The translations under genes and the position numbers were made by a program. Below, piece after piece: positions 26,460 to 28,817 of a DNA stretch of 64,000 nucleotides. Under the pieces are notes generated by a model. It did not search any database, had not been told where the DNA came from, and saw only the letters and a program-made list of their open reading frames with translations. Source of the DNA: Promethearchaeota archaeon. Its GTDB lineage: Archaea > Asgardarchaeota > Lokiarchaeia > Sigyniarchaeales > SOKP01. Each line of letters starts with the position of its first letter. Within the stretch, counting starts at the first letter, position 1. The stretch covers positions 1 through 64,000 of the forward strand of contig JBHLOY010000008.1 of NCBI GenBank assembly GCA_048939995.1, given 5' to 3'.

Positions 26460-28817
26460 TCATTTAAAAAGCGATTGAGATAGTAGTTCTTTTAATTTTG
26501 GGAAAAATTCTTTTTTAGGCATGAGATATTTCATCACAGCTTGAATATCAGCAATTTCAAATTCTAGTTCGGTTGGTAATCTAGTTTCATTTAAGTAAAC
26601 TGCGAAAAAAGGTTTCTTTTTTTTCAAGGCAAAACTAATCTCTTTTCTCACCATTTCTGAATTAATTATATGGGGTGATATGAATACAAGAAAGGTTTTG
26701 CATCGGTCTAAATTTACTGAAATTGATTTTTTCCAATTTTCACTTACAGGTATTCCCTCATCATACCATATCTTAATTCCCATTTTATTCAAATAGTCAA
26801 TAATAGGATAAACCTCTAACTTATCTAAGTGGGCATAACTAACAAATAGAAAAGGGTCATCGCCTGTATAAGCTTTGAATGGCATTTGAAAATTAGCAGG
26901 ATCAGACATAAAACTTTCAATAATTAGATCTTCAATAGGAGTATTGTTTACTTGAATGACTCTACCTTCATCTTTAGCAGTTTTTAGAAGCTCTAGAAAT
27001 TGAGTCTCTTTATTAATAGCTTCAGAAAAATGCTTCATCTTATGTTGGGCGGTATAGGTTTGCCCTTGGAAGATATAACAGATATAGAAATCATCTATCA
27101 ATTTTATAAGAACTGTATTTTTCCCAAGTTTAACACGATCAAACAATTCAGAAAAGATCTGTTCGCTCAATGACATAAATGAAGATAGGAATTCATTAAA
27201 GTTATTTTCACTTATAGTCATGTCTGAAGTGAAAGGGTTAGATAATATAATAGCCCCTTCAATTGTTATAATCACAAGCAAAATAGGCTTTTCAGCTTTT
27301 ACATCAAGAAGAATTCCAGCGCTTCTTCTTATCATACGTAAAGTTTGATCACTTAAATGAGCTAATTCCAATCGATCTTCGATTGGTGCATTAGATTGTT
27401 TAAATTCTTCCCATAATTCCATTTTTTTGAGAAGATCATCATGCTCACTTGAAATTTTCTTTACTAAGCGATCAAAACCATGTTTTTGAGCAATATATTG
27501 GGCTTTAGTTAACAATTGACGGGCATCTTTAATATTTAAGGTTATTAAGCTGAATTTTGCTTGCAACACATAAGATTCAACATAGTGCCAATAACTCTGA
27601 GATTTTTCAGTTAATATTAATAACTGCTTAATTAAAACTTTTATTTCATTTATAATTTCCATTTCATGAGTTAGTTTAAGCTCATAAAATAGAAGATCAC
27701 ATAAGTGAAGCAATCCTTCGATTTTTATTTCAAAAATTACATTTTCATCTTCGATTAATGATCTTAACAGCTTTTCTGCTTTTACTCGATCCTTGAATCT
27801 TAGACTTTCTTTTAGAATAAGAGCTTTAGTGTACTTATAATCCCGATTAATATAGGGACTCTTTTCAATATCACGTAGTTGTCTAACTCGCTCTGAATAC
27901 TCTTTAGCTTTCTCAATATCACCTTTATCAAGACAAACTTCCACCATACCGACATTATATCCTACCTTTAACCAATTATTCTTAGTTCCTTCTACTAATT
28001 CTATACATTTACCTAATAATTCTGTAGATTTATCTAATTTCCCTTGTGCGCGATATATTAATGCCATGTTATTCATAGTACCTAAATATTTTATAAAGTT
28101 ATTAGTTTTCTCGAAATGTGACAATGCTAATACATAATATGACAAACCAGTTTCTAATTCTCCCTTACTAGAATAAATAAAACCTAAATTAAAATGAGCA
28201 GAAGCTATTAACCTTAGATAATGTATTTCTTCGGCGATTTTGAGGCATTTATTTGTATAATAAAATGCTCTATCAATATCCATTTCTGATATTCTATAAT
28301 AATTTGATAATTCAAGATAAGATTCAGCTATATGCTGCTTATTACCTATGTTTTCACGTAATTCTAAACTCTTTCTTATATATTTTAGAGAATCTTCCTT
28401 TTTGCCGAGAAAAAAAGAAAGGTATCCTGTAATAAATGCTTTATAAGCTTCAAGTTCTTCAAGATTTGCTTGATAATCTTTAGAAAGTATTCTATATAAT
28501 TCTCCACTTTTTTCTAATAATTTTGAACTTCTATCTAAATCACCTATTACAGTCAAAGAATAAGCCAAATTTAAGATAGCATTTATTGATTGAAGATAAT
28601 CTTGTACTTTTTGAGCTTTTTGGTAAGCCTGTTCAGCAATCTTAACAGTTTTTTCCCAGTCCCCCAATCTGATTAGAAGTGAACTTAATATTATTTCATC
28701 TGATAAAGATAAGGTTGGATTTTTTACTAATTTATTTAAAATTGGAATTGCTTCATAATCTCTCCCCTCACTCAAAAGGTTTTCTGCCTTTATTAAATCA
28801 TTATCTATGCTTGACAT
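26460..28817 (-). CDS. TPR + longin-like + TIR domain protein (paralog 7)
   Basis: TPR-longin core, then FVSYAHLD...IWYDEGI...W...I...FLVFISP...SEMVRKEI (TIR_2-type motifs with the conserved Glu). Confidence 0.85.
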   Translation of the reverse strand: MSSIDNDLIKAENLLSEGRDYEAIPILNKLVKNPTLSLSDEIILSSLLIRLGDWEKTVKIAEQAYQKAQKVQDYLQSINAILNLAYSLTVIGDLDRSSKLLEKSGELYRILSKDYQANLEELEAYKAFITGYLSFFLGKKEDSLKYIRKSLELRENIGNKQHIAESYLELSNYYRISEMDIDRAFYYTNKCLKIAEEIHYLRLIASAHFNLGFIYSSKGELETGLSYYVLALSHFEKTNNFIKYLGTMNNMALIYRAQGKLDKSTELLGKCIELVEGTKNNWLKVGYNVGMVEVCLDKGDIEKAKEYSERVRQLRDIEKSPYINRDYKYTKALILKESLRFKDRVKAEKLLRSLIEDENVIFEIKIEGLLHLCDLLFYELKLTHEMEIINEIKVLIKQLLILTEKSQSYWHYVESYVLQAKFSLITLNIKDARQLLTKAQYIAQKHGFDRLVKKISSEHDDLLKKMELWEEFKQSNAPIEDRLELAHLSDQTLRMIRRSAGILLDVKAEKPILLVIITIEGAIILSNPFTSDMTISENNFNEFLSSFMSLSEQIFSELFDRVKLGKNTVLIKLIDDFYICYIFQGQTYTAQHKMKHFSEAINKETQFLELLKTAKDEGRVIQVNNTPIEDLIIESFMSDPANFQMPFKAYTGDDPFLFVSYAHLDKLEVYPIIDYLNKMGIKIWYDEGIPVSENWKKSISVNLDRCKTFLVFISPHIINSEMVRKEISFALKKKKPFFAVYLNETRLPTELEFEIADIQAVMKYLMPKKEFFPKLKELLSQSLFK

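What the first reader, a model, noticed from the sequence alone, without database searches (positions are those of the whole stretch)
26460..26885. TIR domain fused to the first gene of the TPR-longin array (TPR-longin-TIR)
Seen: paralog 7 alone carries a C-terminal ~135-aa TIR domain with FVSYAH, WYD and the Glu in SEMVRKEI at the catalytic position. Established: TIR domains with this Glu are NAD+ hydrolases or signal-molecule synthases in SARM1, plant TNLs and Thoeris. Inference: a repeat-sensor + oligomerisation module + TIR resembles innate immune receptors. The TIR-less paralogs could be sensors that heterodimerise through longin domains with one TIR executor (sensor/helper logic), suggesting an immune or stress-signalling role for the array.
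Basis: partly seen in the sequence, partly recalled or inferred. Interest (0 to 1): 0.75.

Follow-up and report, generated by a model that had tools for sequence, protein, structure and literature searches.

The report
Asgard TIR receptor with swappable sensor
This Asgard archaeal gene joins a variable repeat 'sensor' to a conserved longin-plus-TIR module that probably cuts NAD+, and related genes swap their sensor heads much as immune-receptor families do, but the proposed 'many sensors, one TIR executor' arrangement does not hold across genomes.

Summary
Observation confirmed. The 785-aa protein is TPR solenoid + longin + TIR (TIR_2 E 9e-16). Glu726 aligns with AbTir's catalytic Glu and is invariant in 120/120 relatives. 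The full fusion occurs in 18 of 400 Asgard genomes, all in two Lokiarchaeial genera. The one-executor/helper model fails as a rule. TIR copies often stand alone or in tandem with each other, and genomes with 13 to 25+ TIR-less paralogs have no TIR_2 gene. This gene's place at the array head looks like a recombination join. Trees show a fixed longin-TIR cassette whose TPR heads are exchanged with TIR-less paralogs; TIR is under strong purifying selection and the outer TPRs are relaxed. In nine genomes the family co-occurs with a RelA/SpoT-TPR-S-SLOG gene, directly downstream in 7/7 visible cases (Thoeris-like). Immunity is plausible but not shown; a Rab-like GTPase-linked signalling role is the main rival. 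The scan had noted this architecture and the RelA-SLOG/TIR link on other DNA.

The parts
26460..28817 (-). Whole gene, 785 aa: TPR solenoid - longin - linker - TIR
   Evidence: AlphaFold2 pLDDT 87.2
27327..28802 (-). TPR solenoid, residues ~6-497. The outer two thirds are the variable, exchangeable head; the fold is closest to ligand-binding Rap/NprR/AimR/MalT TPRs
   Evidence: (Z 23.6-28.2)
26910..27290 (-). Longin domain, residues ~510-636 (beta-beta-alpha-beta-beta-beta-alpha-alpha), of a subtype found only in TIR-bearing genes
   Evidence: (Z ~11 to AP-2 mu, VAMP7, TRAPP)
26856..26891 (-). Conserved linker (FQMPFKAYxG) that travels with the TIR
   Evidence: F643, P646, F647, A649, Y650 invariant in 120/120
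26463..26855 (-). TIR_2 domain, residues ~655-785
26640..26642 (-). Codon of Glu726, the catalytic position
   Evidence: (120/120)
26652..26654 (-). Codon of Met722, equivalent to AbTir W204 (the cyclisation aromatic). Tyr in 108/120 relatives, non-aromatic here
26322..26459 (-). 45-codon remnant of the 3' end of a TIR-less paralog (67-71% identical to neighbours' tails), in frame behind the TGA stop; read as a recombination or deletion scar
18714..26254 (-). Four contiguous TIR-less TPR-longin paralogs (652, 654, 559, 563 aa)
8675..10792 (-). TIR-less TPR-longin paralog (705 aa) whose TPR head groups with TIR-bearing genes of other genomes
4895..6733 (-). TIR-less TPR-longin paralog (612 aa)
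8021..8596 (-). Rab-like small GTPase of the subfamily that recurs beside TPR-longin genes
13720..14274 (-). Second Rab-like small GTPase, 77% identical to the first

Best explanation
The protein is a self-contained cytoplasmic receptor-enzyme. A variable TPR solenoid binds a ligand (inferred). Binding releases or clusters a fixed longin-TIR output cassette, probably by longin-longin pairing and/or docking of the neighbouring Rab-like GTPase (inferred). The assembled TIRs cleave NAD+ at Glu726 (inferred from residues, fold and selection; about 80% likely on its own). The TIR-less paralogs are not needed as helpers. They are a separate, more widespread GTPase-linked branch that exchanges TPR heads with the TIR branch by recombination (shown by discordant trees and pairwise divergence), so the array acts as a reservoir of sensors. 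In many relatives the TIR product is probably read by the SLOG domain of the RelA/SpoT-TPR-S-SLOG protein encoded next door, as in Thoeris (neighbourhood shown, chemistry inferred). The biological role is most likely conflict or stress sensing (antiviral about 40%).
For: Glu invariant in 120/120; TIR is the most conserved region and the N-terminal TPRs the least. In 32 full genes from genome loci, mean identity is 0.31-0.33 (outer TPR), 0.51 (inner TPR), 0.59 (longin), 0.74 (TIR). Pooled dN/dS over 15 close pairs is 0.40, 0.47, 0.26, 0.14 and 0.07 in the same order. Swaps: one pair has TPR 33/28% but TIR 98% (dS 0.08), another has TPR 98/94% but TIR 72% (dS 1.28). TIR/no-TIR needs 1 change on the longin tree but 9 (at least 5 forced by starred branches) on the TPR trees. 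Distribution is patchy, 18/400 genomes, with varying insertion sites and tandem runs. RelA_SpoT + TPR-S + LSDAT SLOG is confirmed, with LSDAT over the cut-off in relatives. 9 of the 10 genomes with its close clade have the fusion, and it is directly downstream in 7/7 visible cases at two or more chromosomal sites. Distant versions sit beside TIR genes of other architectures in 13 of 16 informative loci, including an island with TIR-LRR and DUF4062-AAA-TPR genes. Active TIR NADases need assembly, and the W204-equivalent aromatic favours cyclisation (10.1101/2022.05.07.491051).
Against: No activity, ligand or expression data. G000 has no RelA_SpoT, LSDAT or TPR-S match (98% complete). The query's TIR subclade (95*) has no member next to a RelA-SLOG gene; that link sits mostly in another subclade (98*). 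The BB-loop position equal to AbTir G174, whose mutation nearly abolishes activity, is Ser in 118/120 members. No site-level test for positive selection was run, and region averages of dN/dS stay below 1, so the TPR variation could be relaxed constraint. dS in the TIR is inflated by recombination. The window is a metabolic and signalling neighbourhood, not a defence island; PADLOC gives only weak domain-level hits. Kin and physically linked genes are not independent counts.
Confidence: 0.55

Rival explanations
1. Housekeeping GTPase-coupled signalling. TPR-longin proteins are ligand-sensing regulators or effectors of one Rab-like GTPase subfamily. The TIR version adds an NAD+-derived second messenger or a scaffold to that pathway, with no immune role.
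For: G000 has 6 GTPases of this subfamily (their 5-kb zones cover 1.5% of the genome), and 4 of them lie at TPR-longin loci (3 of 5 loci). The same subfamily flanks the query's nearest relatives in G138, L078 and L084. The TPR fold is closest to RRNPP/MalT ligand sensors. Longin domains are GTPase platforms in eukaryotes (own knowledge), and Asgard longins are fused to signalling domains (10.1101/2020.10.19.343400). The gene lies 33 bp behind a metabolic operon.
Against: Most TIR-bearing loci of other subclades have no such GTPase within the 8-20 kb fetched. Patchy presence, tandem expansion, head swapping and the RelA-SLOG link are more typical of conflict systems. This rival overlaps with the best explanation in mechanism and differs mainly in purpose.
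Confidence: 0.25
2. One reading: TIR-less paralogs sense, heterodimerise through longin with the single TIR protein, and switch it on.
For: In G000 both TIR genes lie 5' of TIR-less paralogs, and TIR genes are followed by a TIR-less one in G079, G097 and G138. All but one of the 18 fusion genomes also show additional TPR-longin matches. The longin of this gene with the longin of the 24296 paralog scored 0.32 against a best control of 0.01; runs agreed in at least 69% of contacts, partner pLDDT at least 69. The tool calls this weak: only 7 of 80 solved complexes passed at 0.60 or under, as did both mismatches that passed.
Against: About 82 genomes keep TIR-less paralogs without the fusion. G071, G083, G094, G088 and G092 (13 to 25+ copies, 84-100% complete) have no TIR_2 match. 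TIR genes come solo or in runs of 2-3 with their own different TPR heads. The closest homologue is followed by a convergent regulator gene. The head-of-array position carries a deletion scar. Longin dimers are solved (adaptins, TRAPP), so the weak pass may be memory of the fold.
Confidence: 0.12
3. The TIR is a non-catalytic interaction module, as in animal TLR adaptors, or a passenger domain. The Glu is kept for structure.
For: Best structural Z values include adaptor TIRs (MyD88, IL-1RAcP). The BB-loop Gly is replaced by Ser, and the aromatic is lost in both G000 copies.
Against: The Glu and surrounding pocket residues (S660, H663, W684-G688, W695) are invariant while neighbours vary. The nearest sequence matches are bacterial NADases AbTir and BtTir. 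A nucleotide-sensing SLOG partner recurs next door. dN/dS of about 0.07-0.09 excludes a decaying passenger.
Confidence: 0.08

Closest known systems
Thoeris type I and III (ThsB TIR sensor-synthase + SLOG-containing effector)
   Same: TIR with catalytic Glu. In relatives, a SLOG-bearing enzyme gene is directly downstream, and several different TIR genes can share one SLOG partner (system definitions from 10.64898/2025.12.03.692087).
   Different: The TIR is at the end of a 785-aa TPR-longin protein. The partner's SLOG is LSDAT (TRPM-type) and its enzyme is RelA/SpoT-like, not SIR2. The partner is not found in this genome. No defence is shown.
Bacterial TIR_2 NADases AbTir, BtTir, TcpB/BtpA and bacterial repeat-TIR fusions (LRR-TIR, TPR-TIR, FHA-TIR)
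   Same: Closest solved sequences (E 3e-4 to 3e-3) and Foldseek matches. Atlas clusters of bacterial LRR-, TPR-, FHA- and GYF-TIR proteins match linker plus TIR at rmsd 1.5-2.9 A.
   Different: None of the listed clusters includes the longin. The W204 position is Tyr (family) or Met (query), and the BB-loop Gly is Ser.
Plant TNL / sensor-helper NLR networks, SARM1, bacterial Avs/NLR-like proteins
   Same: Repeat sensor + assembly module + enzymatic TIR; tandem clusters with birth-and-death turnover and recombination of the sensor part.
   Different: No NB-ARC/NACHT/STAND ATPase and no SAM domain; the central module is a longin. Helper dependence is not supported by the census.
BcTir/Tpr (10.1101/2023.05.26.542521) and TPR-S/SLOG nucleotide-conflict operons
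   Same: TIR, TPR and LSDAT domains meeting in one operon type.
   Different: There TIR and TPR are separate proteins and the NADase is in BcTpr; no longin.
RRNPP family (Rap, NprR, AimR, PlcR) and MalT domain III
   Same: Best structural matches of the TPR solenoid, Z 23.6-28.2; ligand-gated TPR controlling an output domain.
   Different: 11-15% identity; helical repeats score high by shape alone; no cognate peptide gene identified; the output is C-terminal longin-TIR.
Asgard longin fusion proteins (Liu et al., 10.1101/2020.10.19.343400)
   Same: Lineage-specific longin fusions arising by domain shuffling.
   Different: A longin-TIR or TPR-longin-TIR fusion is not mentioned there, nor found by my paper searches.

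Membership tests
TIR_2 domain (PF13676) | Profile score above the curated cut-off and flavodoxin-like TIR fold | tested here: met
   58.9 bits vs 28; Z 16.7, rmsd 2.3 A, 124 aligned
Enzymatic (NADase) TIRs | Catalytic Glu in helix alphaC | tested here: met
   E726 aligns to AbTir E208; 120/120 conserved
Enzymatic (NADase) TIRs | Intact BB loop (AbTir G174) | tested here: inconclusive
   Ser at that position in 118/120, Gly in 2; effect unknown
Enzymatic (NADase) TIRs | NAD+ turnover on assembly | not testable with these tools
   needs an assay
cADPR-isomer-forming TIRs | Aromatic residue four before the Glu (W/Y/F) | tested here: not met
   Met722 in this protein and Thr in the second G000 copy; met (Tyr) in 108/120 relatives
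Longin domain | beta-beta-alpha-beta-beta-beta-alpha-alpha order and structural match to longins | tested here: met
   Z 10.7-11.4 to AP-2/AP-3 mu, VAMP7, TRAPP, CPLANE. No sequence-level match
Thoeris | Cognate SLOG/macro effector encoded with the TIR gene | tested here: not met
   None at this locus; no LSDAT, TPR-S or RelA_SpoT match in G000 (the STALD search had no positive control). Met in 7 relatives
Thoeris | TIR product activates the effector; antiviral protection | not testable with these tools
   needs experiments
NLR/STAND receptors (TNL, Avs) | Central NB-ARC/NACHT/STAND NTPase | tested here: not met
   No P-loop family hit; the model is fully accounted for by TPR, longin and TIR
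Sensor/helper receptor networks | Sensors co-occur with and depend on the executor | tested here: not met
   TIR-less paralogs occur in ~82 genomes without the fusion, five rich ones with no TIR_2 match
Sensor/helper receptor networks | Physical sensor-executor complex | tested here: inconclusive
   weak support, 0.32 vs best control 0.01
RRNPP peptide sensors | Cognate secreted peptide encoded next to the receptor | not tested
   only the fold likeness was seen

The most novel reading that the evidence does not exclude
Lokiarchaeia have their own diversifying intracellular immune-receptor family, built without an NLR ATPase. TPR heads are shuffled by recombination from a library of TIR-less paralogs onto a longin-TIR cassette that is gated by longin pairing or a Rab-like GTPase. 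It signals through an ADP-ribose-type messenger to a RelA/SpoT-SLOG effector that is shared with Toll-like single-pass membrane TIR receptors.
Probability: 0.3. Interest if true: 0.85.

Novelty: new variant of a known kind. Interest (0 to 1): 0.58.

Why it matters
It puts a eukaryote-signature trafficking domain (longin) in the assembly slot of a receptor-TIR enzyme in the archaeal relatives of eukaryotes. It also shows NLR-like sensor shuffling in an archaeal gene family. The natural pairs found here make TIR signalling in Asgard archaea directly testable: same TIR with different heads, Tyr versus Met copies, and genomes with and without the RelA-SLOG reader. The fusion is confined to two genera and its TIR resembles a mobile bacterial subtype, so it is a lineage-specific invention and not evidence for the ancestry of eukaryotic TIR receptors.

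Tried and rejected
Assembly artefact: rejected; independent runs reproduce gene and junction. Stop-codon readthrough into the 45-codon remnant: judged unlikely but not excluded. No other TIR gene examined has a clear remnant (one weak hit at E 0.005), and its identity in four same-species contigs is uninformative because they are identical throughout. Expression: no RNA holder listed. One X5 contig joins the Fe-ADH end to a paralog tail with only 46 letters on the short side; too weak to show a strain lacking the gene. Sequence search of the longin alignment against PDB gave nothing; the fold search on the whole model was swamped by TPRs until the C-terminal part was folded alone. Viral contigs: one weak 26% match, not followed up as a relative. 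PADLOC: only domain-level hits. The sigma-70 promoter scan is not informative for archaea. Atlas feature search gave no usable hit. Burroughs et al. 2015 was not held, so TPR-S/LSDAT as nucleotide sensors rests on Pfam names, and my own knowledge. The idea that the aromatic residue tracks the SLOG reader is suggestive only: non-aromatic copies were seen in 3 of 9 reader-less genomes and 0 of 9 with a reader, among the copies examined. Also, the membrane TIRs beside distant RelA-SLOG genes are themselves non-aromatic. A lone LDcluster4 SLOG and a Macro gene lie 11-19 kb from another G000 TIR gene amid unrelated genes; not taken as the missing reader. The Fisher p of 3e-7 for fusion/RelA co-occurrence overstates, since kin and linked genes are not independent. 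My first longin-TIR alignment (A5) held two wrong rows and was discarded for A6.

Full report
OBSERVATION. The gene at 26460-28817 (-) encodes 785 aa. Pfam finds TPRs over the first ~450 residues and TIR_2 at 658-760, E 9.4e-16. E726 aligns with the Glu of the WTNYE motif of AbTir, its catalytic E208. AlphaFold2 gives a confident model (pLDDT 87.2): an all-helical solenoid to ~497, a beta-beta-alpha-beta-beta-beta-alpha-alpha domain at 510-636, a linker and a TIR. Folded alone, the C-terminal part matches TIRs at Z 15.5-16.7 and longins (AP-2/AP-3 mu, VAMP7, TRAPP, CPLANE) at Z 10.7-11.4. Seven paralogs lie in the window, and only this one has a TIR. The genome has 12 TPR-longin genes, two with TIR, and seven TIR_2 genes in all. 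Contigs from independent sediment runs reproduce the gene and its 3' junction. Homologue labels and a named relative point to Lokiarchaeia/Promethearchaeota; this placement is inferred.

FAMILY. A search with the longin-TIR part found 199 proteins; the best 120 nearly all carry TIR_2 and most are ~790-aa TPR fusions. E726 is invariant in all 120. That set was chosen by this region, so I repeated the comparison on genes taken from genome loci, with the same gradient: mean identity 0.31-0.33 for the outer TPRs and 0.74 for the TIR. The full cassette is in 18 of 400 genomes of the phylum, all in two genera of one family, at 1 to about 9 copies. TPR-longin genes in general are in 100 of 161 genomes of the class. 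The nearest other TIRs are single-copy ~470-aa SWIM-finger-TIR proteins of wider spread in the class. Beyond them lie bacterial repeat-TIR fusions that share linker and TIR but not the longin. A single fusion event is compatible with the tree, but is not proven.

TEST OF THE HELPER MODEL. It predicts that TIR-less sensors co-occur with an executor and that executors are single. Neither holds. G071, G083 and G094 (25 or more paralogs) and G088 and G092 (13) have no TIR_2 match. G079, G093 and G097 carry three TIR-bearing genes in a row, and G116, G137, G059 and G097 have solo copies between unrelated genes. The 76% homologue is followed by a convergent wHTH-TPR gene. Behind the stop codon of this gene lies a 45-codon piece, 67-71% identical to the tails of the neighbouring paralogs and followed by their usual spacer (first noted in e1-5529023). 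Upstream, only 33 bp separate it from an Fe-ADH gene. The head-of-array position therefore looks like a local recombination join. A longin-longin complex with the next paralog scored 0.32 against a best control of 0.01, with at least 69% contact agreement and partner pLDDT at least 69. The tool rates that as weak (7 of 80 solved complexes and both passing mismatches scored this low), and solved longin dimers may explain it. Optional heterodimers remain possible.

WHAT THE PARALOGS DO SHARE. On a longin tree the TIR and no-TIR genes separate with one change (support 86). On trees of the TPR regions the label needs nine changes, at least five forced by starred branches (FastTree, long branches flagged). 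For example, the TPR of the TIR-less gene at C38:137139 is sister to a TIR-bearing gene of G116 (100*), and the window's 8675 paralog groups with TIR-bearing genes. Pairwise values agree: TPR 33/28% with TIR 98% (dS 0.08), and TPR 98/94% with TIR 72% (dS 1.28). Pooled dN/dS falls from 0.40-0.47 in the outer TPRs to 0.14 in the longin and 0.07 in the TIR; for this gene against its closest homologue it falls from 0.31 to 0.09. So longin plus TIR is a fixed cassette and the TPR head is exchanged. The link between paralogs that I can show is genetic.

A PARTNER IN RELATIVES. A 669-aa gene follows TIR-bearing genes in several genomes. It is RelA_SpoT + TPR-S + LSDAT SLOG, with the synthetase motifs intact in the close clade (read by eye). 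Ten genomes have the close clade; nine also have the fusion, and in all seven where the upstream DNA is visible the TIR gene is adjacent, at two or more chromosomal sites. More distant versions sit beside TIR genes of other builds in 13 of 16 informative loci. These include signal peptide-ectodomain-single membrane helix-TIR proteins and an island with TIR-LRR and DUF4062-AAA-TPR genes. This is the Thoeris layout: variable TIR synthases, one SLOG reader. I found it before consulting the scan, which had reported it from the partner's side. It does not extend to this locus. G000 has no RelA_SpoT, LSDAT or TPR-S match, half of the fusion genomes lack it, and the query's TIR subclade has no reader-adjacent member. 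The residue equal to AbTir W204, which favours cyclisation, is Tyr in 108 of 120 relatives but Met here and Thr in the second copy.

A SECOND CONTEXT. One Rab-like GTPase subfamily has six genes in G000, and four lie at TPR-longin loci, against 1.5% of the genome within 5 kb of such a gene. It also flanks the three nearest relatives of this gene. The TPR fold is closest to Rap, NprR, AimR and MalT ligand sensors, although helical repeats score high by shape.

MECHANISM. Shown: domain layout, conserved catalytic residue, purifying selection, cassette structure, head swapping, neighbourhoods. Inferred: ligand binding by the TPR, activation by clustering through the longin or a GTPase, NAD+ cleavage, and reading of the product by SLOG in relatives. 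I put 0.55 on an autonomous, swappable-sensor TIR enzyme for conflict or stress sensing; 0.25 on GTPase-linked housekeeping signalling; 0.12 on the helper network; 0.08 on a non-catalytic TIR.

KNOWN AND NEW. It works like a Thoeris ThsB or a repeat-TIR receptor, but at this locus it is not a Thoeris member (no effector) and it is not an NLR (no STAND ATPase). Paper searches found no description of a longin-TIR fusion; the library lacks most subscription papers. Verdict: a new variant of a known kind, interest 0.58.

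Noticed in passing
G000 C38:134476-139082 (outside the window; L001): Second TPR-longin-TIR gene followed by one TIR-less paralog. Three-gene TIR runs occupy the same site in G079, G093 and G097.
   Followed up: yes
L046:12250-14256 and L058-L077, L100-L117: RelA/SpoT-TPR-S-LSDAT(SLOG) family; a longer ~860-aa form has worn synthetase motifs and a longin-like tail. Nearly all LSDAT matches in the class belong to this family.
   Followed up: yes
L104:2040-8078, L105:832-6531, L113:2622-5249, L101:3474-8540, L107:13646-18559: Toll-like layout in Lokiarchaeia: large ectodomain (NosD beta-helix in the two where Pfam named it), one membrane helix, cytoplasmic TIR with Glu, next to the RelA-SLOG gene.
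   Followed up: partly
L100:3932-17000 (G061): Conflict-like island: TIR-LRR, solo TIR, DUF4062-AAA_16-TPR, RelA-TPR-S-SLOG and a synthetase-less TPR-S-SLOG paralog.
   Followed up: partly
L026-L037: Conserved single-copy ~470-aa SWIM-finger-TIR protein in about 30 Lokiarchaeial genomes, often near pyrD/pyrK-like genes. Its TIR is sister to the fusion's TIR, keeps the Glu and lacks the aromatic.
   Followed up: partly
L039:2-4039 (G082): One open frame of at least 1346 aa holding two TPR-longin-TIR units in tandem: a fused duplication or an assembly join.
   Followed up: no
window 11799-13733 and 16779-18683: Two wHTH-TPR regulators (55% identical) interleaved with the array. The trio regulator + Rab-like GTPase + TPR-longin recurs at G000 C37:24513-29764 and in L038, L078 and L084.
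   Followed up: partly
G000 C3:86703-90383, C13:216913-218547, C13:106701-108194, C17:476434-477660, C17:346982-348229: The other five TIR genes of the genome: WD40-TIR, PCI-TIR and three multi-pass membrane TIRs, all with the Glu, and no SLOG reader found in the genome.
   Followed up: partly
   Followed up: partly
L044:378-1424, L054:4835-5881, L055:15105-16151: A 349-aa DUF362 gene precedes the TIR genes in G125, G123 and G120.
   Followed up: no
window 64-609 and 677-4189: An Asp-rich repeat protein fragment and a 1170-aa subtilase near the far end of the array.
   Followed up: no
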